Virus record (IMG/VR): IMGVR_UViG_3300028992_000036
From: a virus
Lineage: Duplodnaviria > Heunggongvirae > Uroviricota > Caudoviricetes
Length of the DNA: 64,000 bases
Reading direction: 5' to 3' (one strand)
A model generated the notes under the pieces. It was given only the letters and a program-made list of their open reading frames with translations. It was not told where the DNA came from and did not search any database. Positions 52,770-64,000 of the stretch are shown here, piece by piece (the stretch's first letter is position 1; the number at the start of each line of letters is the position of its first letter). The position numbers were made by a program, and so were the translations under genes.

Positions 52770-52871
52770 GTATGCTGTCAGCGGTAATTGATAGTCTGTC
52801 AGCGGTTCACCGTATGCTGCCAACTGTTTTTGGTATTCTGTCAGCGGCAAATCAAGTATGCTGTCAGCGGT
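52770..52871. repeat. replication iterons, upstream set (5 copies, ~21-22 bp phase)
   Basis: (G)TATGCTGTCAGCGGT-type direct repeats at 52770, 52791, 52811, 52832, 52856. Confidence 0.7.
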
Positions 52872-52891
52872 TGAATGACAAAGGTGTCCAC

Positions 52892-53986
52892 ATGTCCACA
52901 AAAAATAAAAAAGGTAAAAATAACAAAGAAGTAGAAGATAACATCGACAACTTTGAAGAAGGTTCCCTTGAATTGTACACAGGGGAACTTGTCCCTAATA
53001 GCAACAATACAGTCCAACCAATTGCGTTGATGCGACTGGGGTTGTTCGTCCCCACGCTTAAGGGAACAAAATACAGTAAACGTAACAAGCCAAATGAGAT
53101 CGATGCTTCAAAGGAGCTTGTCCAGCTCGAAGTAGCCCGTTCTGAAGGCTATTCCGATATCAAGATAACCGGTCCTCGTCTCGACATGGATCATGATTTC
53201 AAAACGTGGGTGGGCGTTGTGCGTTCGCTGGCAGAATACGGCGAACCTAACGGTCGTGTCGAGTTAAGCATCACGAAATTTGCGAAGTTTTGTGGCTATC
53301 CATCGTCACAGATCCGCAAAACACTCCGCGACCGGCTTACAAACAGTCTTTTGAAGATCATGCGTACAACTCTGTCTTTCCAGAGAACGTATGAAGAAAA
53401 GAACGTCGACGGCTCTAACAAGATCTCGCTTCTGATGGTGCACCTCATCAATAGCGTGGACTACAACGAGCAGAAAGATACGGTGGTGTTCTATGCAGAA
53501 CCGAAGCTGGCCGAACTATATCGCTTTGACCATAAGGTTCTTTTGCAGTTAAAGGTTATCAATAAGCTACCACGCAAAGAAACAGCACAGGCTCTGTACA
53601 CCTTCATCGAAAGTCTTCCAACCAAGCCTGCGCCGGTATCGCTTGCTCGATTGCGTGCGCGACTCAATTTGAGTAGCAGGAATGTCAGCTCGCAGAATCA
53701 GACTATACGTAACGGCTTAAAAGCTCTCCAAGATTTGGGCTATCTCGAATACAGCGAGATTAAGCGTGGGCGGTCGATCTATATCCAGATTCACAGCCGC
53801 AATCCAAAACTCAAAGTCGCACCGCCAAAACCTGAAGACATCGAACCCAAAAAACCAGATGAGAAAGCCGGGGAAATTGATGCCAAACAGAACATTATCA
53901 ATAAGATAACCGAACTTTCGCAGAATTTGACGCCTGAAAATATCAAGATGATTGAGATCCTTTCCAATAGTCTCAAACTGCTTTGA
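52892..53986 (+). CDS. repA: plasmid-type replication initiator RepA
   Basis: 364 aa from ATG 52892 (AAAGGTG RBS), flanked by iteron arrays; iteron-binding initiator layout. Confidence 0.7.
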   Translation: MSTKNKKGKNNKEVEDNIDNFEEGSLELYTGELVPNSNNTVQPIALMRLGLFVPTLKGTKYSKRNKPNEIDASKELVQLEVARSEGYSDIKITGPRLDMDHDFKTWVGVVRSLAEYGEPNGRVELSITKFAKFCGYPSSQIRKTLRDRLTNSLLKIMRTTLSFQRTYEEKNVDGSNKISLLMVHLINSVDYNEQKDTVVFYAEPKLAELYRFDHKVLLQLKVINKLPRKETAQALYTFIESLPTKPAPVSLARLRARLNLSSRNVSSQNQTIRNGLKALQDLGYLEYSEIKRGRSIYIQIHSRNPKLKVAPPKPEDIEPKKPDEKAGEIDAKQNIINKITELSQNLTPENIKMIEILSNSLKLL

Positions 53987-55783: not shown

Positions 55784-56289
<506 letters not shown>

Positions 56290-56480
56290 TGGCTCGGTCA
56301 CGGCGAACTGCCGTTCAAGGTAGTTAGGGATAGCAACATGTTCATGACCACCACGTTTATACCGGTGAGTCGGCTGCTGACAGCTGACCAGCCCCAGCTC
56401 CTTGGCAATTTGACGTCCTTTCAGGCCTGGTGACCCACCTAATAACTCTGAGACTGCCTTCAGCAAACCATCACTCCTTT

Positions 56481-59400
56481 CTACCTACCCACCATTCGTT
56501 GCATACTTTGCGTCCACGAGGCTTTAAATGCTGAATCTCCTGCGAACAACTTGTAGAGCTCAAGTTCATCTTTACGGCGTTGCAGCATGATTTCCTTGAG
56601 CATTTTTTCGAAGGCCAAATTTCGATTATGGGGATCTGGGTTGTTTTTGTATTTCGATTCGAAGTCAGGGTGATTGCGGATACTTTCAGCGATGTTCACG
56701 AACTTAACCTTTTGCTCTTCAGGTGTGGCACTCCAGCCCTGGAACCATCGCTCATTAAATGTGCGAATGATTTCATCCAGCGGGTCAGTTTCTTTTTCAC
56801 CGCCATGCACCCCACGTGGGTTCGGATTTTGAGGATCAAGCTCCGCTTCTTGGTCACTAAGTTTAATGCTGTGGTTAAGCTTCACACGTTGCAAACCGTA
56901 TGAACTCAGATCGACAGAATCGAGAAGCTCATCAATAGCATCAGCATCGGGATCTTCCACTTTCAATTTCGGTATTAAAAACTTCAGGAACCAAAACAGT
57001 TTTTCCCAGCTGACCATTTCATAAGGCATGATAGAAGCCATCTGCCCATAGATTTTAACGAACTGTTTGGCTTTAATCTTAAAGTCCACTTTAGCTTCAG
57101 CTTCAAGATCTAGTTCATGGTCAAACCGCGCTGCGGCAATATCAATGATTGGACTGAGTGTTTGGGCGTCTTCATTCTTGAAATAACGCGTCACAAAGTC
57201 TTCAACTTCATACCACTCGTACACACCGACATCGTCCATTTCATCTTTCAACTCGTGCAGTACGTTTATATCTGTAGCTTGGGACAATGACGTTGCTGTA
57301 TAGAAAGGATCGAATGCTGATTGAATATCTTCAACCGAGTTGAAAAAATCCAGGATAAACAAGTCTTCTGTTTTCTTCCCTAGCTTAGGTGCACTGCGAT
57401 TGAGCCTAGATAGCGCCTGAACACACAAGACACTGGCGAGCTTCTTATCTACATACATGGCGCAAAGCTTAGGCTGGTCAAACCCAGTCAGATACTTGTT
57501 AGCAACCACTAAAAGTCGATACTCATCGGTATCAAACATATCTTTGGTATCTGACTCGGCAAAACCATTAATATCTGCTTCGGTATATTCAATACCATCA
57601 ACTTCTTTGGTTCCTGAGAAAGCAATGGCAACTTTAAACGGGTTTCCTTGCTCCTCAAGTATTCGCCTTATCGCTTTGTAGTATCGAATGGCCGCCTCAA
57701 TATTTTGAGTGACCACCATTCCTTTACCTTTACCTTTGAGCTTTTTCGTATTCACGACATGCGGAACAAAATGCTCCAGCATAATCTCTGCCTTGATATC
57801 AATTGTTTGCTGGCTTCGTTCTACATAAGCTCTGAGTTTTTTCTGCGCCTTTTTGGTATCAAACTCAGGGTTATCAGCAATTGATTTCTCAATCTCATAA
57901 TAACTTTTGTACGTCGTATAATTTGCCAGCACATCCAAGATGAAGCCTTCTTCAATGGCTTGTTTCATCGAATACAAGTGAAACGGCTTGTAAGAGCCAT
58001 CTTCTTGGCGTTGACCAAATTTCTCCAAAGTGCTGTTTTTTGGTGTCGCTGTAAATGCCAGGTACGACGCATTCCCGCGCATCTTACGCGATCTCATCGC
58101 CTGAAGGATTTTATCCTGAGCATCTTCTGCCTCTTCGACTTCAGACTTGCCCATCGCTCGGTTCATATTGTCATGCGCCGAACCAGACTGTGAGCTGTGT
58201 GCTTCATCGATGATCACTGCAAAGCGCTTGTCACTAAGATCGGCGATACCATCAATAATGAACGGGAATTTCTGAATCGTCGTTATAATAATCTTTTTGC
58301 CATTCTCCAGCGCCTGCTTAAGCTCAGAAGACTTATTCGCTGGGGCAATAATGTTCTTTACTTCAGAAAACTCTTTAATGTTATCCCGCAGCTGCTTGTC
58401 CAATAGGCGTCTATCGGTGACCACAATCACAGAGTCAAACAACGGCTGCTCCAAGCTTTTTCCGCCTGCCACATCAGACGAAGCAGGATAGGTTTCAATT
58501 AGCTGATAAGCTGCCCAGGTAATCGAGTTAGACTTACCTGAACCGGCTGAGTGTTGAATTAAGTAAGTCTGACCGACACCGTGCTGGGCGGCATGGTCTA
58601 CTAATTTTCTCACCACATCCAATTGATGGTATCGAGGAAAGAACAGGGTTCGCTTGGGTAATGGATCTTTGCTTGACCCATCCAGACGCACAAAATGCTG
58701 AATAATATTCGCCAAGCTGTCTTTAGTGAATACTTCTTGCCATAGGTATGCCGTTTTATGGCCAGATGGATTCGGCGGGTTGCCTTGTCCAAGATTGTGA
58801 CCTTTATTGAACGGCAAGAAGAATGTACTGCTACCTGATAACTTGGTGGTCATATACACTTCGTCGGTATCGACCGCCATATGCACTAGGCAGCGGCCAA
58901 AGGTCAGCAATGGCTGAGTTGCATCCCGATCATCTCGATACTGCTTTTGGCCGTGATAACGTGCTGTTTGCCCGGTCCATGCGTTCTTCAACTCCAGCGT
59001 TATCAAGGGTATTCCGTTGATAAACAATACCATGTCGATTTCTTGTAGGGGATTTACCATGGAATAGCGCACTTGGCGAGTACAACTAAACACGTTATCT
59101 GCAAAGTTTTGCTTTACCTTCTCACTACTACTTGCCAAAGGGGCTGGATAGAGCAAATTGAAATGAGCATCGTCTACGCTTAGCCCTTTCTTAAGTAAAT
59201 GAAGAATGCCATGCTTCTTAATCAGTCGGTCAAATCGTTCGAGTAACTTACGTTGCCAATCTGAGGGGTTGTTCTTTTGCAGTTTGGCCAACTCTACTTC
59301 TTGTGTCTTTTGCAGAAATTGCCAGAAAAAACGTTCATCAATGGCATATTGCATATTAAAGTCACTAGCAGCACCAATGAAGTATCCAGCACCCAGTGAC

Positions 59401-59498
59401 TGCTGACTCAGCCCCTCTTTGAGCTCTTCAGTACTGATCCCAGCCAGACATTTCTCAATGGCCGACTCTAATGCTTGTTCATTGGTTTGACTGACCAT
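56481..59498 (-). CDS. hsdR: type I restriction enzyme R subunit
   Basis: N-terminal nuclease motif D..(13)..ELK, helicase motif [13 protein letters not shown] box VIIDEAHSS; 1005 aa; AAGGGA RBS. Confidence 0.85.
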
Positions 59499-59512
59499 AA
59501 TTGTAAGTTCCC

Positions 59513-60676
59513 TTAATCAAAATTCTTCTGTTTCATTGCCTCAGCCGCTTTTTGCAGCGGTCCTTTTAAGGCTTTTTCTAACTTTGTCATCTGCTCTAAG
59601 TGCCACGCAACCGCTTGGGGCCAAGTCTCTTTGTTAAACCCGTCAGCTTTGGTCGAAAACTGGATACGGCAAGATTTCTTCTCATCCAGCCTCATCCACT
59701 CAAGTTCTGCACCAAAAGTATGCTCAATGTCTTGTTTGGACTGACTCAACAAATCAAAAAGGTATTTATTCTCTTCGGTAACCCCACGGCTGATCCAAAG
59801 CTCTACTCGAAGCTCTTTTTGCAGAAATATCAGGTTATACGGACATCCACTTAGCCCTGAGCCTGCTGATAACCAATGATCTTTGCTTGGGCTAATGTTG
59901 TTATAGAGTTGGCAAGAGCTTTTCTGAAACGCCTCTAAGGCACGCTCCCAGTACTCGCGACGCACGGTATGGCGGTTTTTTAGTACCACTTCGGTGGTTT
60001 TTTCTTCCGCTTCCTTGGCATTAATGCCGATCATCAACTCTTTCGCTTCTGGCGTTGGAATGATCTGGTCAATATTAATCAGTAGCTGTTCACCCAGTGA
60101 ATAAGGCGTGATTTTGAAGCAGGCAATGCTAATGCCTTGACCCAATAACCACAGCGCGGTGCTGGTCACTTCTTTGCGAAAGTTTGCCGCAACTAACATA
60201 ATGCGCTGGCTGTTACCCAGGTTGAGCTTTAACTCATCGAGATCGGGCGCATCCAAAAACTCACATATTCTAGCAGAGGCACTTGCAGGGGTATTAAACA
60301 AGTCAACCTCTCCTGTTACAGGCTCATAGCGGTCTAAGTACTGCTGGTAAATTTCAACGATTTGCGCTTTGGTTAAACTTGCGCAGTAGGAGGCATATTT
60401 AAGCGCCTGCCACACCACATCGCGGCCACTGTCGTCCAGCTTGTTTTCAATAATGACCAAGTTGCCATCTTTATCCAGTGCCAGTAAATCTAAGCGTTCA
60501 CGGGTGTCATCAAAGCCATCGAACTCTTTTTGAATAATCAGCAGCTCTTCACCCAGTGCGGAAGGCTCGTGTGCCAACCATTCCTGAAGATTTTTGCGCT
60601 CAGTAAAGCCCAACTCACTGAATCTCTTCGTCTTAACCGGACTAATCCTGTTGGTCTGATGATTTACCGTGAACAT
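59513..60676 (-). CDS. PD-(D/E)xK-like domain protein embedded between hsdS and hsdR
   Basis: N-terminal DLLALDKDGNLVIIENK (D..E.K) nuclease-like motif; no P-loop; 9-14 nt gaps to hsdS and hsdR. Confidence 0.5.
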   Translation of the reverse strand: MFTVNHQTNRISPVKTKRFSELGFTERKNLQEWLAHEPSALGEELLIIQKEFDGFDDTRERLDLLALDKDGNLVIIENKLDDSGRDVVWQALKYASYCASLTKAQIVEIYQQYLDRYEPVTGEVDLFNTPASASARICEFLDAPDLDELKLNLGNSQRIMLVAANFRKEVTSTALWLLGQGISIACFKITPYSLGEQLLINIDQIIPTPEAKELMIGINAKEAEEKTTEVVLKNRHTVRREYWERALEAFQKSSCQLYNNISPSKDHWLSAGSGLSGCPYNLIFLQKELRVELWISRGVTEENKYLFDLLSQSKQDIEHTFGAELEWMRLDEKKSCRIQFSTKADGFNKETWPQAVAWHLEQMTKLEKALKGPLQKAAEAMKQKNFD

Positions 60677-60685
60677 ATTCGCTTC

Positions 60686-62014
60686 CTATTGCTCAACCAT
60701 TTCTGGGGTGATCTTGATTTTTCCTGTCACGGCGCTGTTGATCAGGGTGGTTTTATATTCTTTAAGCTTTTCGATTTGTATTTTTTGATACTCTATAGCT
60801 CGCTCAACATCACCATTTAATCTGTTAATGTACGTAATAATTCCATCTCGTTCATTTTTAGAAGGGGGGAAAGGCACAAAAATGCTATTAAGATTCCCCA
60901 CTGTAAGCTGATTAATTGTTGATGTAAGAAATGTCCCTGATAACATTTTGAAAACATCACTATTTAGAATGCAAAATAAATACTCATTGTGTTTAGATCT
61001 GAATACCGTAGTAAAGGCCCCGAAGCTGTTTCCCTCATCAGCGTCAGATACAAATGCACACTTGCCAATTAGGTCTCGACTTCCATTCCTGGAGCATATC
61101 AAAATATCACCTTTTTTAAGCTTTAAGTGCTCAGGAATAAAGCAATTGACATAAACATTTTCCTTTTCACCATACTTAAACTTCCCTTCGTATAAGTTTG
61201 ATGATCGCGCAACTAGAGTTCCGCCTTTTTCATCACTTAAATCATTTGGCGAATAAGTTAACCCAATGATCGATTTACCAAGATATTTTAACCTCTTAAC
61301 GTCCCAATGCGCTGGAATCTTACCAATCCAATCCACACCGGAGTCTTTCATTGGCACATTGGGATCAAGCCCTTGGGTCACCGCCTGTTGGATGATGATC
61401 TGCTTACGCTCTTTCAGCAGGCTAATTTGCTGCTCTTTGATCGAAATCGCTTCGTCGATTAGAGCGGTTTTCTTGTCGAGGAAGCAGGCAATTAGAAGTT
61501 GTTCCTCGGTTGGTGGCAAAAATACCAAGGCTCGTTTTAATTGAGGCCAATATAGGTTTCTCTGAATTGTTCCTACACCTTTTGAGCTAACTAAGTAATT
61601 AGCCACCATTGCCCCATCTCTGAACAGATAGTTACCAAAGCGGGGAACTATATCTTCCGATAAAGAAAGAACTAAGTAAGCTGGGCTGACTATTCCTCGG
61701 TAATCAGAAACACCGACTGAACCACGCCAAGCTTGCTGATTATTTAAAACAAAGTCACCTGGATCTACCAACTGATACTTAGTCAGATCCGAACTGGTTG
61801 TATTTGTACGTTTTGCATCAACGTCATCGAATTTTATTACTCCTTTGTCCAAATAGACTGATAGAAGCTCTTCATTTTCATTATTAGAAATAGATTTTAA
61901 TTTTGATTTTGCGCACAAAGGAAATGAATTCCAGTGAACTGGTATGGCCCCTATCCATTCAACACCTGAATCTTTATAAGCCTCATATTTCGGCATTTCA
62001 GAAATCTTCATCAT
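60686..62014 (-). CDS. hsdS: type I restriction-modification specificity subunit
   Basis: Two target-recognition domains each beginning KDSGV(E/D)WIG.IP.HW, separated by conserved helical spacer. Confidence 0.8.
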   Translation of the reverse strand: MMKISEMPKYEAYKDSGVEWIGAIPVHWNSFPLCAKSKLKSISNNENEELLSVYLDKGVIKFDDVDAKRTNTTSSDLTKYQLVDPGDFVLNNQQAWRGSVGVSDYRGIVSPAYLVLSLSEDIVPRFGNYLFRDGAMVANYLVSSKGVGTIQRNLYWPQLKRALVFLPPTEEQLLIACFLDKKTALIDEAISIKEQQISLLKERKQIIIQQAVTQGLDPNVPMKDSGVDWIGKIPAHWDVKRLKYLGKSIIGLTYSPNDLSDEKGGTLVARSSNLYEGKFKYGEKENVYVNCFIPEHLKLKKGDILICSRNGSRDLIGKCAFVSDADEGNSFGAFTTVFRSKHNEYLFCILNSDVFKMLSGTFLTSTINQLTVGNLNSIFVPFPPSKNERDGIITYINRLNGDVERAIEYQKIQIEKLKEYKTTLINSAVTGKIKITPEMVEQ

Positions 62015-62020
62015 AACGAC

Positions 62021-64000
62021 TTACCCCTGAACCTTTTTTACTTCCGCACCAAGAATCTGCGCAATCAAACCTTCGGCTTTTTGTTCTAGGTTGATGATGT
62101 CGGTTGCGACCTCTTCTAAACTACGCAGCGGTTTATGACGGTAGAAATACTTATTGAAGCTGATTTCATAGCCAATTTTTACCGTATCTAGGTTTATCCA
62201 TGCTTCATCGACATGAGGCTTCACTTCATCTAGGAAGTACTGGTAAATGCTTTGCTTTAATGGAACAGATTCTGTATCTCGCAGGTCTGAATTGGTCTCG
62301 TAAGTGATATACTCGCCTTTTTTACCGCCTTCTGCTGAAGGAACGGGGTAATAACCAAAATCTGGCAAGTCAGCGACTTCACACTCATAGCGCTCCAGCA
62401 GGTCGTTTAATTTATCACCCGTTAATTTAACTACCTTTTTAACCACTTTCTTGGCGGTTTCGTCATACCAGCTCACCGCGTGAAGAATGGCATTTTTCTC
62501 AGGTGCTGAAAGCTTAATAGCATGGGCTTTTAGCGATTTATCAACTTGGGTTTTAAAGCTATTGAAGTCATCAAATTCAATGCTACCGATGTCAGCCATC
62601 AGCGTTTGTGCAGTTTCAAGCAATGCTTTTAGCGCCAGCCAGTGTTTCACATCAAGCAGTTTGGCCTTAGCCTTAGCATTGAGACTGATGTCGTTATCTT
62701 CACACCAAGAAAGAATGTCTTTCTCGATGGATTTTAAGAAGCTCTTTTTCTGATCTGACCCGTAGCCAGTTTTTTCGTAAACACGTTCGCCGTGCTCTGC
62801 GTACACGTACTCCATCACTTCACTAAGTTGCTTATCAAAACGCAGTGGGGCTATGGCATCTTGAGTAAACTTGGCTTTGCGGCGATCTGGGCGCTCGATA
62901 GTGACTTTGTAGTAGCCAAAATCGTCATTGCTGAATACCTTACTGGCGATGCCAACAGGATCATTGTTTGCATCCAGTGCTCTTTCAACATCCTTACACG
63001 CGAGGTAAGTATCGGTAATTTCCGTGATGTGCTCAGGCGCAAATTCGCAGTTTTTGTTACCTAAGTTCTTGCGCAACTTACGGTAGAGCAAGCTGGCATC
63101 AATTAATTGCACCTTACCTTTACGCGCCTCAGGTTTATTGTTGTTCAACACCCAAATGTAAGTGGTAATGCCAGTGTTATAGAACAGGTTATTAGGTAAC
63201 TGAACGATGGCATCTAGCATGTCGTTTTCAATGATGAAGCGACGAATATTACTTTCGCCACCGCCCGCATCACCGGTAAAGAGCGATGAGCCGTTATGAA
63301 CAGAGGCAATCCGGCTGCCTAATGGACTTACGCTCGGATCTTTCATCTTGTTGACCATCTCCATTAAGAAAAGCAGCTGGCCATCACTCGAACGTGGCGT
63401 GGCATCCACCACTTCGAGATTTCCCCAATAGTCTTTCAGGCTAACCTTAAAACGCGGGTCAATCACATCGCTGCCGTCTTTAATGTACTTCTGTTCAGAC
63501 GCCCAACTCTTACCGTATGGCGGGTTAGACAACATAAAGTCAAAGCGAGAAGCCGCAAACTCGTCGGTAGACAAGGTTGAGCCTACCTTGATGTTCTCAG
63601 GGTTGTTACCTTTGATCATCATGTCCGATTTACAAATCGCGTAGGTCTCGTCATTGATCTCTTTGCCGTAAAGGTAAATATCTCGGCTGTCGTTCGGGTA
63701 TTTCTCTTCAATGAAGTTTTGAGATTCAGTGAGCATACCACCGCTACCACACGCAGGGTCGTAAACGGTCATGGTCAATGGTAGCTGCTCTTTCACTGGG
63801 TCAAAAACCAAGTGTGTCATCAGCTCAATCACTTCCCTAGGTGTAAAGTGCTCACCGGCTTCTTCGTTATTCTCCTCGTTGAACTTACGGATCAACTCTT
63901 CGAACACGTACCCCATACCCAGGTTAGTAAGGGCTGGCATCTTGTTGCCATCTGGGTCTTCGATCGTTTCATGAGTTAAGTTGATGTAAGGGGAAACAAA
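62021..64000 (-). CDS. hsdM: type I restriction-modification methyltransferase subunit, N-terminus beyond window end
   Basis: Motif I DPACGSGGML, motif IV NPPYG; reading frame stays open upstream of the first Met to nt 64000. Confidence 0.85.
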   Translation of the reverse strand, partial: FVSPYINLTHETIEDPDGNKMPALTNLGMGYVFEELIRKFNEENNEEAGEHFTPREVIELMTHLVFDPVKEQLPLTMTVYDPACGSGGMLTESQNFIEEKYPNDSRDIYLYGKEINDETYAICKSDMMIKGNNPENIKVGSTLSTDEFAASRFDFMLSNPPYGKSWASEQKYIKDGSDVIDPRFKVSLKDYWGNLEVVDATPRSSDGQLLFLMEMVNKMKDPSVSPLGSRIASVHNGSSLFTGDAGGGESNIRRFIIENDMLDAIVQLPNNLFYNTGITTYIWVLNNNKPEARKGKVQLIDASLLYRKLRKNLGNKNCEFAPEHITEITDTYLACKDVERALDANNDPVGIASKVFSNDDFGYYKVTIERPDRRKAKFTQDAIAPLRFDKQLSEVMEYVYAEHGERVYEKTGYGSDQKKSFLKSIEKDILSWCEDNDISLNAKAKAKLLDVKHWLALKALLETAQTLMADIGSIEFDDFNSFKTQVDKSLKAHAIKLSAPEKNAILHAVSWYDETAKKVVKKVVKLTGDKLNDLLERYECEVADLPDFGYYPVPSAEGGKKGEYITYETNSDLRDTESVPLKQSIYQYFLDEVKPHVDEAWINLDTVKIGYEISFNKYFYRHKPLRSLEEVATDIINLEQKAEGLIAQILGAEVKKVQG

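What the first reader, a model, noticed from the sequence alone, without database searches (positions are those of the whole stretch)
56481..64000. Type I R-M operon with an extra PD-(D/E)xK-like gene between hsdS and hsdR
hsdM, hsdS, a 387-aa ORF and hsdR are co-directional with 6-14 nt gaps, so the ORF is almost certainly co-transcribed. Its N-terminus carries a D..(E)NK nuclease-like motif and it has no P-loop, so it is not a PrrC-type anticodon nuclease, the classical gene found at this position. It may be a restriction-linked abortive-infection or back-up effector.
Basis: partly seen in the sequence, partly recalled or inferred. Interest (0 to 1): 0.75.

Follow-up and report, generated by a model that had tools for sequence, protein, structure and literature searches.

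The report
Modified-DNA nuclease inside Type I R-M operon
The extra gene between hsdS and hsdR encodes a NucS-like nuclease fused to a DUF4268 domain, belongs to the catalogued defence family PDC-S11/MdgA, and most likely cuts chemically modified phage DNA that the surrounding Type I restriction enzyme cannot attack; it is real but already known in kind.

Summary
On the minus strand, hsdM (cut by the window end), hsdS, a 387-aa ORF (X, 59513-60676) and hsdR are co-directional with gaps of 6, 9 and 14 nt. No promoter- or terminator-like site lies at the junctions.

X is not an orphan. It matches PADLOC family PDC-S11 over its full length (E 1.8e-182). PDC-S11 is one of the candidates Payne et al. 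defined because they sit inside BREX, DISARM or Type I R-M operons. Its N-terminal half is a NucS-like PD-(D/E)xK nuclease (D63, E77, K79, Q90, Y94). Its C-terminal half is DUF4268.

A family member, MdgA, was characterised in 2025. [quoted passage not shown] It defends E. coli against T4 and Mu and degrades T4 DNA far better than T4-GT7 DNA.

In 80 genomes of different species, 46 homologues lie between hsdM and/or hsdR, in two different Type I families. Others sit beside Zorya, Type III R-M or Hhe.

X is therefore most likely a modification-dependent nuclease that complements the Type I system, not a PrrC-like suicide effector. Novelty is low: a new member of a known kind.

The parts
62021..64000 (-). 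hsdM, Type I R-M methyltransferase subunit. Its 5' end (about 444 nt) lies beyond the window end.
   Evidence: Pfam N6_Mtase E 1.3e-60; PADLOC MTase_I PDLC03029 E 3e-212. The full gene is 2424 nt / 807 aa in the 100%-identical plasmid NZ_CP022167.1.
60686..62014 (-). hsdS, Type I specificity subunit (442 aa), 6 nt after hsdM
   Evidence: Pfam Methylase_S; PADLOC Specificity_I PDLC03191 E 1.8e-128. Its central recognition regions are the only part of the module that diverges from the ICE copies.
59513..60676 (-). X: 387-aa PDC-S11/MdgA-family protein (NucS-like nuclease + DUF4268), 9 nt after hsdS and 14 nt before hsdR
   Evidence: PADLOC PDC-S11 PDLC04913 E 1.8e-182 over residues 1-383. AF2 model pLDDT 95. 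Equals RefSeq WP_032328845.1.
60047..60676 (-). X residues about 1-210: PD-(D/E)xK nuclease domain of the NucS/RecB type
60395..60490 (-). Catalytic motif D63 ... E77-x-K79 ... Q90-xxx-Y94
   Evidence: E26, D63, K79, Q90 and Y94 are invariant and E77 is >=90% conserved in 77 homologues. The profile aligns these residues to NucS D160/E174/K176/Q187/Y191. The MdgA E77A primer encodes V-I-V-[E>A]-N-K-L-D-D, the same register as X residues 74-82.
59561..59965 (-). X residues 238-372: DUF4268 domain, the presumed substrate/modification-recognition module
56481..59498 (-). hsdR, Type I restriction/translocase subunit (1005 aa)
   Evidence: Pfam HSDR_N, SWI2_SNF2, ResIII, T1R_D3-like; TIGR00348 hsdR E 2e-62.
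56388..56480 (-). 3' edge of the transferable hsdM-hsdS-X-hsdR module. Homology to the SXT-type ICE copies stops here.
   Evidence: blastn of the plasmid locus against ICE loci: the shared block is L001 3500-11717, i.e. window 56388 to beyond the end, at 93-96% identity.

Best explanation
X is a stand-alone, modification-dependent (Type IV-like) restriction endonuclease of the PDC-S11/MdgA family. It is transcribed from the same operon as a Type I R-M system.

Proposed mechanism:
- The N-terminal NucS/RecB-type PD-(D/E)xK domain (D63, E77, K79, Q90, Y94) cleaves DNA.
- The more variable C-terminal DUF4268 domain recognises the substrate, most likely hypermodified phage DNA. In the characterised homologue the sensitive phages are T4 (glucosyl-hydroxymethylcytosine DNA) and Mu.
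- The Type I enzyme destroys unmodified foreign DNA, and X destroys DNA that escapes it by base modification. One mobile 8-kb cassette thus covers both kinds of phage.

Shown here: gene anatomy, family membership, catalytic motif, fold, and conserved embedding in hsd operons.
Taken from the literature on a homologue: single-gene sufficiency, dependence on E77, and preference for modified T4 DNA.
Inferred: that this particular protein has the same kind of substrate, and that DUF4268 is the sensor.
For: - Family: full-length match to PADLOC PDC-S11 (E 1.8e-182); DUF4268 E 1e-39; NucS-like N-terminus.
[quoted passage not shown] It comes from insert T4-29 = F01A_T4_pc4_2, which the authors list as a PDC-S11 hit. 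Its E77A primer encodes VIV[E>A]NKLDD, and X has VIIENKLDD at residues 74-82.
- Purified MdgA degrades T4 DNA far better than T4-GT7 DNA, E77A abolishes this, and MdgA defends against T4 and Mu in vivo (PMC12366544).
- DUF4268 is otherwise found fused to GmrSD Type IV enzymes (PMC4619093, PMC5714182).
- Context: 46 of 80 species-level loci have X between hsdM and/or hsdR; 16 use the same Type I family as the window and 30 use a different one. The immediate upstream neighbour is HsdS in 34 of 78 loci, and the immediate downstream neighbour is HsdR in 22-24 of 78.
- Other copies lie next to Zorya, Type III R-M, Hhe or a NERD-UvrD protein, so the protein does not need hsd.
- Precedent: TgvAB, a Type IV system embedded in the VPI-2 Type I operon, acts independently of HsdR nuclease activity (PMC11411939).
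- The nuclease half is more conserved (50%) than the DUF4268 half (30%), as expected if the latter sets specificity.
Against: - No experiment exists on this protein.
- The MdgA sequence could not be retrieved. Identity to X is therefore unknown beyond a 9-residue stretch and the shared HMM family. If MdgA belongs to the cluster of P0171, the representative whose N-terminus most resembles the primer-derived one, identity would be about 41%; this placement is a guess.
- Substrate specificity may differ within a family this diverse.
- DUF4268 has no demonstrated binding to modified bases. Its fold (YbjN / T3SS-chaperone-like) is not that of any known modified-base reader.
- The recurring hsdS-to-hsdR position (HsdS immediately upstream in 34 of 78 loci) is not required by an independently acting enzyme and remains unexplained.
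Confidence: 0.65

Rival explanations
1. PrrC-style back-up or abortive-infection effector. X would be held inactive by the Type I complex and released when a phage anti-restriction protein disables that complex. It would then degrade host and phage DNA and kill the cell.
For: It occupies the same hsdS-to-hsdR slot as prrC. HsdS is the immediate upstream neighbour in 34 of 78 loci, in two Type I families. A nuclease could serve as a suicide effector. The MdgA liquid-infection data seen here (Fig. S6 legend, T4 at MOI 0.01) do not by themselves exclude Abi.
Against: MdgA alone, without any hsd gene, is sufficient and is not reported as toxic. The purified protein discriminates T4 from T4-GT7 DNA directly. 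About 40% of the sampled homologues have no hsd neighbour. X has no P-loop or regulatory NTPase domain.
Confidence: 0.1
2. A defence nuclease with another trigger, not base modification. Examples would be free DNA ends or particular DNA structures, as in Shedu SduA or NucS-like flap/mismatch recognition, or modification-independent sequence cleavage.
Against: The only characterised member is modification-dependent. DUF4268 is recurrently fused to GmrSD-type Type IV enzymes. PDC-S11 inserts were recovered in T4 and T2 selections.
Confidence: 0.15
3. An accessory or regulatory subunit of the Type I enzyme, for example one that alters HsdR activity or restriction alleviation, with no defence activity of its own.
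For: Tight gaps (9 and 14 nt) with no promoter- or terminator-like site at the junctions in this window. X and hsdM/hsdR stay conserved at 93-96% nt identity while the hsdS recognition domains are swapped.
Against: The catalytic nuclease residues are invariant. The family occurs without hsd and with two unrelated hsd families. One or two other defence-type genes (Fic, RhuM, GmrSD_N, Schlafen/AlbA_2) often lie between X and hsdR. MdgA works alone.
Confidence: 0.04
4. A NucS/EndoMS-type mismatch-repair endonuclease.
For: Best structural and sequence similarity is to the NucS catalytic domain. One UniRef entry names a close homologue 'Endonuclease NucS'.
Against: The NCBIfam NucS score of 23.9 is far below the 216 cut-off and covers only about 85 residues. 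No Pfam family other than DUF4268 was found. The gene sits on mobile elements inside defence loci and is present in only 59 of 5426 complete E. coli genomes.
Confidence: 0.01

Closest known systems
MdgA (modification defense gene A; Cell Host Microbe 2025, PMC12366544 / bioRxiv 10.1101/2025.02.28.640651)
   Same: Single ORF with a NucS-like nuclease plus DUF4268. Both fall in PADLOC family PDC-S11. The catalytic glutamate is at position 77 in the same ...V-I-[VI]-E-N-K-L-D-D... motif.
   Different: MdgA came from a human faecal metagenomic insert assigned to Comamonas and was tested as an isolated gene. X sits inside a Type I R-M operon on an E. coli phage-plasmid. Whole-sequence identity is unknown because the MdgA sequence was not retrievable. 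X itself is untested.
PADLOC PDC-S11 (Payne, Hughes, Fineran & Jackson 2024, 'guilt-by-embedding' phage defence candidates)
   Same: X matches model PDLC04913 end to end (E 1.8e-182) and seven other PDC-S11 models. The family was defined from genes embedded in BREX, DISARM or Type I R-M operons, which includes the situation seen here.
   Different: PDC-S11 is a computational candidate class with no function assigned in that work.
TgvAB of Vibrio cholerae VPI-2 (PMC11411939) and RloF of Campylobacter jejuni
   Same: Modification-dependent restriction genes lying between hsdS and hsdR of a Type I operon. They are proposed to complement Type I by targeting hypermodified T-even-like phages, and their action is independent of HsdR nuclease activity.
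   Different: These are GmrSD-type proteins (DUF262 NTPase + DUF1524 HNH), and TgvAB needs two proteins. X is a single PD-(D/E)xK protein with no NTPase domain and no sequence relationship to them. DUF4268 does occur as an add-on in some GmrSD proteins.
PrrC anticodon nuclease in the EcoprrI locus
   Same: Same genomic slot, between hsdS and hsdR of a Type I operon (background knowledge; Payne et al. also note PrrC is almost exclusively Type I-embedded).
   Different: PrrC is an ABC-ATPase-like tRNA(Lys) anticodon nuclease that acts as a suicide effector. X has no P-loop and has a DNA-nuclease fold.
NucS/EndoMS
   Same: Catalytic-domain fold and the D...ExK...QxxxY motif align residue for residue.
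   Different: X shows no full-length NucS match (NCBIfam 23.9 bits vs cut-off 216, about 85 residues aligned), has a DUF4268 C-terminus instead, and lies in a mobile defence context.

Membership tests
PDC-S11 / MdgA family | Full-length match to the PADLOC PDC-S11 profile | tested here: met
   PDLC04913 E 1.8e-182, residues 1-383 on profile positions 1-373 of 375; seven further PDC-S11 models at E 1e-66 to 2e-30.
PDC-S11 / MdgA family | N-terminal NucS-like PD-(D/E)xK nuclease with catalytic Glu77 | tested here: met
PDC-S11 / MdgA family | C-terminal DUF4268 domain | tested here: met
   PF14088 E 1.1e-39, residues 238-372, above the gathering score (136 vs 27 bits).
PDC-S11 / MdgA family | Whole-sequence homology to the characterised MdgA protein | not testable with these tools
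   The MdgA sequence is not in the held supplements. Two metagenome scans with primer-derived patterns found no true match.
Type IV (modification-dependent) restriction enzymes | Cleaves modified but not unmodified DNA; protects against phages with modified genomes | not testable with these tools
   Shown only for the homologue MdgA (T4 vs T4-GT7 DNA; T4 and Mu in vivo).
Type I R-M system (the host operon) | HsdM (N6_Mtase), HsdS (Methylase_S, two recognition domains) and HsdR (HSDR_N nuclease + SF2 motor) encoded together | tested here: met
   hsdM is complete (807 aa) in the identical plasmid.
PrrC-type anticodon nuclease | N-terminal ABC-ATPase-like domain with P-loop | tested here: not met
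   No Walker A motif. No ATPase family in Pfam, NCBIfam or PADLOC.
NucS/EndoMS mismatch endonuclease | Full-length NucS match (equivalog score), not only the catalytic domain | tested here: not met
   NCBIfam NF003270 scores 23.9 bits against a cut-off of 216, with only residues 16-101 aligned to profile positions 118-201. No NucS domain model reported by Pfam at E<=0.01.
GmrSD family (TgvAB, BrxU, RloF) | DUF262 (ParB-like NTPase) and/or DUF1524 (His-Me finger) domains | tested here: not met
   Only DUF4268 was found by Pfam. The fold search gave PD-(D/E)xK nucleases, not His-Me finger proteins.

The most novel reading that the evidence does not exclude
The recurring placement of X directly after hsdS and before hsdR, in two unrelated Type I families, may reflect functional coupling and not just shared transcription. 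The placement was seen in the window with 9- and 14-nt gaps, and HsdS is the immediate upstream neighbour in 34 of 78 loci. For example, X might be recruited to or activated by a Type I complex that has bound but cannot cut modified DNA, or it might monitor inhibition of the complex by anti-restriction proteins. That would make the four genes one integrated sensor-effector system instead of two independent enzymes.
Probability: 0.1. Interest if true: 0.6.

Novelty: new member of a known kind. Interest (0 to 1): 0.25.

Why it matters
The finding gives a DUF-labelled gene a concrete, testable function. The gene is present in 59 of 5426 complete E. coli genomes and at >=97% identity in Vibrio, Proteus, Providencia, Alteromonas and other Gammaproteobacteria.

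It also shows the same 8-kb 'Type I + modification-dependent nuclease' cassette in three settings: SXT/R391-type conjugative elements, chromosomal islands and an SSU5-like phage-plasmid. Such cassettes matter for phage-therapy host range, particularly for T-even-like phages, and for understanding how defence modules are packaged for horizontal transfer.

It does not open a new category. Both the family and the principle of a Type IV enzyme embedded in a Type I operon are published.

Tried and rejected
1. A single-sequence AlphaFold run gave an unusable model (pLDDT 42). It was replaced by a run with a 77-sequence alignment (pLDDT 95).
2. phmmer of X against PDB sequences found nothing. The family profile was needed to reach NucS.
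4. I tried to recover the MdgA gene from metagenomes with primer-derived patterns. The E77 region gave 0 hits. The start-codon primer gave 8 hits, none of which encodes an X homologue.
5. No supplements were held for the PMC versions of the MdgA paper. The bioRxiv supplements supplied the primer and the PDC-S11 table.
6. The hsd-X module has no match in the phage collection, so it is cargo and not phage-plasmid backbone.
7. The scan found no promoter- or terminator-like site at the gene junctions that would argue for separate transcription.
8. PrrC, GmrSD and genuine NucS membership were considered and rejected on domain tests (see Membership tests).
9. I asked whether ICEVchInd6, which restricts T2/T4/T6 in E. 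coli, carries X. The V. cholerae ICE copies I fetched carry CBASS, not the BstXI-like enzyme described for Ind6. The link is unverified and is not claimed.
Full report
**1. What is in the sequence**

The region 56481-64000 carries four co-directional ORFs on the minus strand:

| Gene | Window coordinates | Size |
|---|---|---|
| hsdM | 62021 to the window end | 807 aa in full (see below) |
| hsdS | 60686-62014 | 442 aa |
| X | 59513-60676 | 387 aa |
| hsdR | 56481-59498 | 1005 aa |

Purine-rich ribosome-binding stretches lie in the gaps before X and hsdR.
- Pfam, NCBIfam and PADLOC confirm the three hsd genes.
- The window cuts hsdM. In the 100%-identical E. coli plasmid pM160133_p3 (NZ_CP022167.1) it is 2424 nt / 807 aa.
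- A consensus scan found no promoter-like or terminator-like site at the gene junctions, and fewer promoter-like sites than in shuffled sequence. One transcript is the simplest reading.

**2. What X is**

- Pfam finds one domain, DUF4268 (residues 238-372, E 1e-39).
- NCBIfam gives a weak match of residues 16-101 to the catalytic part of endonuclease NucS.
- PADLOC gives a full-length match to PDC-S11 (PDLC04913, E 1.8e-182) and to seven other PDC-S11 models.
- X has no Walker A motif.
- In an alignment of 77 representatives at 30-60% identity, E26, D63, K79, Q90 and Y94 are invariant and E77 is nearly so.
- A profile of that alignment aligns D63/E77/K79/Q90/Y94 with D160/E174/K176/Q187/Y191 of Pyrococcus abyssi NucS. 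This is the RecB/NucS-type PD-(D/E)xK signature.
- An AlphaFold2 model built with the alignment is confident (pLDDT 95).
- The nuclease half is much better conserved than the DUF4268 half (50% vs 30% mean identity).
- Some relatives carry three to five tandem DUF4268 domains. Both observations fit a variable binding or specificity module attached to a constant catalytic core.

**3. What is already known about this family**

PDC-S11 is one of 145 'phage defence candidates' that Payne et al. derived from genes embedded in BREX, DISARM and Type I R-M operons (bioRxiv 10.1101/2024.01.29.577857).

A functional metagenomic screen (Cell Host Microbe 2025; PMC12366544, bioRxiv 10.1101/2025.02.28.640651) characterised MdgA:
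[quoted passage not shown] S5 legend).
- It comes from insert T4-29 = F01A_T4_pc4_2, which the authors' table lists among four inserts hitting PDC-S11.
- The E77A mutagenic primer (GTT ATT GTT GCA AAC AAG CTA GAT GAT) encodes V-I-V-[A]-N-K-L-D-D. X reads V74-I-I-E77-N-K-L-D-D82, the same motif in the same register.
- MdgA protects E. coli against T4 and Mu but not T4-GT7.
- The purified protein degrades T4 DNA far better than T4-GT7 DNA, and E77A is inactive.

Earlier bioinformatic work noted DUF4268 as a C-terminal add-on of GmrSD Type IV enzymes, and a server prediction suggested it binds DNA (PMC4619093, PMC5714182). I could not retrieve the MdgA sequence itself. Whole-length identity to X is therefore unknown.

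**4. Is the linkage to hsd conserved?**

- A scan of one genome per species returned 470 confirmed relatives. The best 80 (53-98% identity) were fetched with flanks.
- I searched their ORFs with the window's HsdM, HsdS and HsdR. In 46 of 80 loci X has hsdM upstream and/or hsdR downstream on the same strand, and 40 have both.
- Of these 46, 16 belong to the window's Type I family and 30 to a clearly different one (E about 1e-20 to 1e-30).
- By Pfam, the immediate upstream neighbour is HsdS in 34 of 78 loci. The immediate downstream neighbour is HsdR in 22-24 of 78.
- In 17 loci one or two further genes lie between X and hsdR. Across all 78 loci the immediate downstream neighbour was Fic in 7, RhuM in 6, GmrSD_N in 3 and Schlafen/AlbA_2 in 3.
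- Copies without hsd lie next to Zorya I, Type III R-M, Hhe, a NERD-UvrD protein, or large uncharacterised helicase systems in ICE hotspots.

X is therefore a defence-island gene with a strong but not obligatory preference for the hsdS-to-hsdR slot. One caveat: the 80 loci are the closest relatives, so the fraction may differ for the whole family.

**5. Mobility and host element**

- The window is an SSU5-like phage-plasmid: 96% of the first 25 kb matches Escherichia phage CMS-2020a at 98% identity.
- The hsd-X module has no match in any phage record, so it is accessory cargo.
- Proteins at least 97% identical to X occur in Vibrio, Proteus, Providencia, Morganella, Alteromonas, Marinomonas and others.
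- In Alteromonas and V. cholerae the cassette lies in SXT/R391-type ICEs, in the order rumAB ... BrxR(WYL)-hsdM-hsdS-X-hsdR ... CBASS-traI.
- The block shared between plasmid and ICE runs from about 93 nt past hsdR to about 160 nt before hsdM, at 93-96% identity. Only the hsdS recognition regions are replaced.
- In the plasmid the cassette has lost brxR and ends next to an IS3-family remnant.
- X occurs in 59 of 5426 complete E. coli genomes, 39 on chromosomes and 20 on plasmids. One chromosomal copy I inspected is again hsdM-S-X-R, flanked by IS debris.

**6. Mechanism**

The best-supported reading is that X is a stand-alone modification-dependent nuclease that complements the Type I enzyme. 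Type I attacks unmodified foreign DNA. X attacks DNA that evades Type I through hypermodification.

The published precedent is TgvAB, which sits in the same slot of the V. cholerae VPI-2 Type I operon. Its anti-T-even activity does not need HsdR's nuclease (PMC11411939).

Steps shown here: family, motif, fold and context. Steps taken from a homologue: sufficiency, E77 dependence and preference for modified DNA. Steps inferred: X's own substrate, and DUF4268 as the sensor.

The rivals are less likely, for the reasons given in their entries. They are a PrrC-like abortive effector, a nuclease with a different trigger, a Type I accessory subunit, and a NucS-type repair enzyme.

**7. Verdict**

However, it belongs to a catalogued family that has recently been functionally characterised, and the principle of a Type IV enzyme embedded in a Type I operon is published. 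I rate it a new member of a known kind, with interest about 0.25.

The one point left unexplained is why this family so often sits exactly between hsdS and hsdR in unrelated Type I lineages. Functional coupling with the Type I complex is not excluded (probability about 0.1).

Noticed in passing
window 55784-56466 (minus strand); N run at 56253-56289: An IS3-family transposase remnant (integrase-core-like ORF fragments) abuts the 3' end of the hsd cassette. It is interrupted by a 37-base run of N, which is an assembly gap or masking.
   Followed up: partly
window 1-25000 (backbone) and 56388-64000 (cargo): The window is an SSU5-like phage-plasmid (98% identity to Escherichia phage CMS-2020a; also PhiR41_1, Cyrano and Klebsiella phage-plasmids). 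The hsd-X cassette matches none of 50,697 phage records, so only some members of this phage-plasmid group carry it.
   Followed up: partly
L001 11670-11717 (just beyond the window end) vs L002 5212-6180: In SXT/R391-type ICEs a BrxR-type WYL regulator gene directly precedes hsdM. In the plasmid, homology stops about 48 nt inside the 3' end of brxR. The cassette here has therefore lost its presumed repressor but keeps the brxR-hsdM intergenic region.
   Followed up: partly
window about 60780-61940 (hsdS interior); L001 7890-9051: The hsdS target-recognition regions are the only part of the 8-kb cassette not conserved between plasmid and ICE copies. The rest is 93-96% identical. Specificity has been swapped while X, hsdM and hsdR were kept.
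   Followed up: no
L002 14102-16434; also L009, L015, L017, L022, L023 downstream of hsdR: In ICE and several chromosomal copies of the same hsd family, a conserved trio follows hsdR: about 361 aa (no Pfam or PADLOC hit), about 183 aa (faint MarR_2) and about 122 aa (YdjM). The trio is absent from the window, where the IS remnant takes its place. These may be further unrecognised cassette genes.
   Followed up: partly
proteins P0173, P0205, P0228 (relatives of X): These relatives carry 3, 4 or 5 tandem DUF4268 domains in proteins of 536-739 aa. P0183 keeps the NucS_C-like nuclease with a different C-terminus. DUF4268 therefore behaves as a shuffled, repeatable module.
   Followed up: no
L018, L019, L035, L041, L042, L056-L058, L060, L062, L064, L073, L075: In these loci one or two extra genes lie between X and hsdR. 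Across the survey, immediate downstream neighbours include Fic/DOC (7), RhuM (6), GmrSD_N (3) and Schlafen/AlbA_2 (3). The hsdS-to-hsdR slot accumulates several defence-type genes in series.
   Followed up: partly
literature: bioRxiv 10.1101/2020.12.16.423150: ICEVchInd6 (hotspot 5: WYL regulator, Type I hsdR, BstXI-like enzyme and hypothetical genes) restricted T2, T4 and T6 when moved into E. coli. Classical R-M would not be expected to do this against glucosyl-HMC DNA. An X homologue in that hotspot could explain it, but I did not verify that Ind6 carries one.
   Followed up: partly
L100 7000-9122 (context of P0171, the representative whose N-terminus most resembles the primer-derived MdgA N-terminus): Here the X homologue follows an Nmad3 (nucleotide-modification-associated) gene and lies near Asn_synthase-like and HFX_2341_N genes. 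This may be a DNA-modification context and not an hsd one.
   Followed up: no
window 52772-53986 (+): A 404-aa ORF with a lysine- and glutamate-rich N-terminus lies about 2.5 kb from the cassette. It may be the plasmid replication initiator. It was not examined.
   Followed up: no
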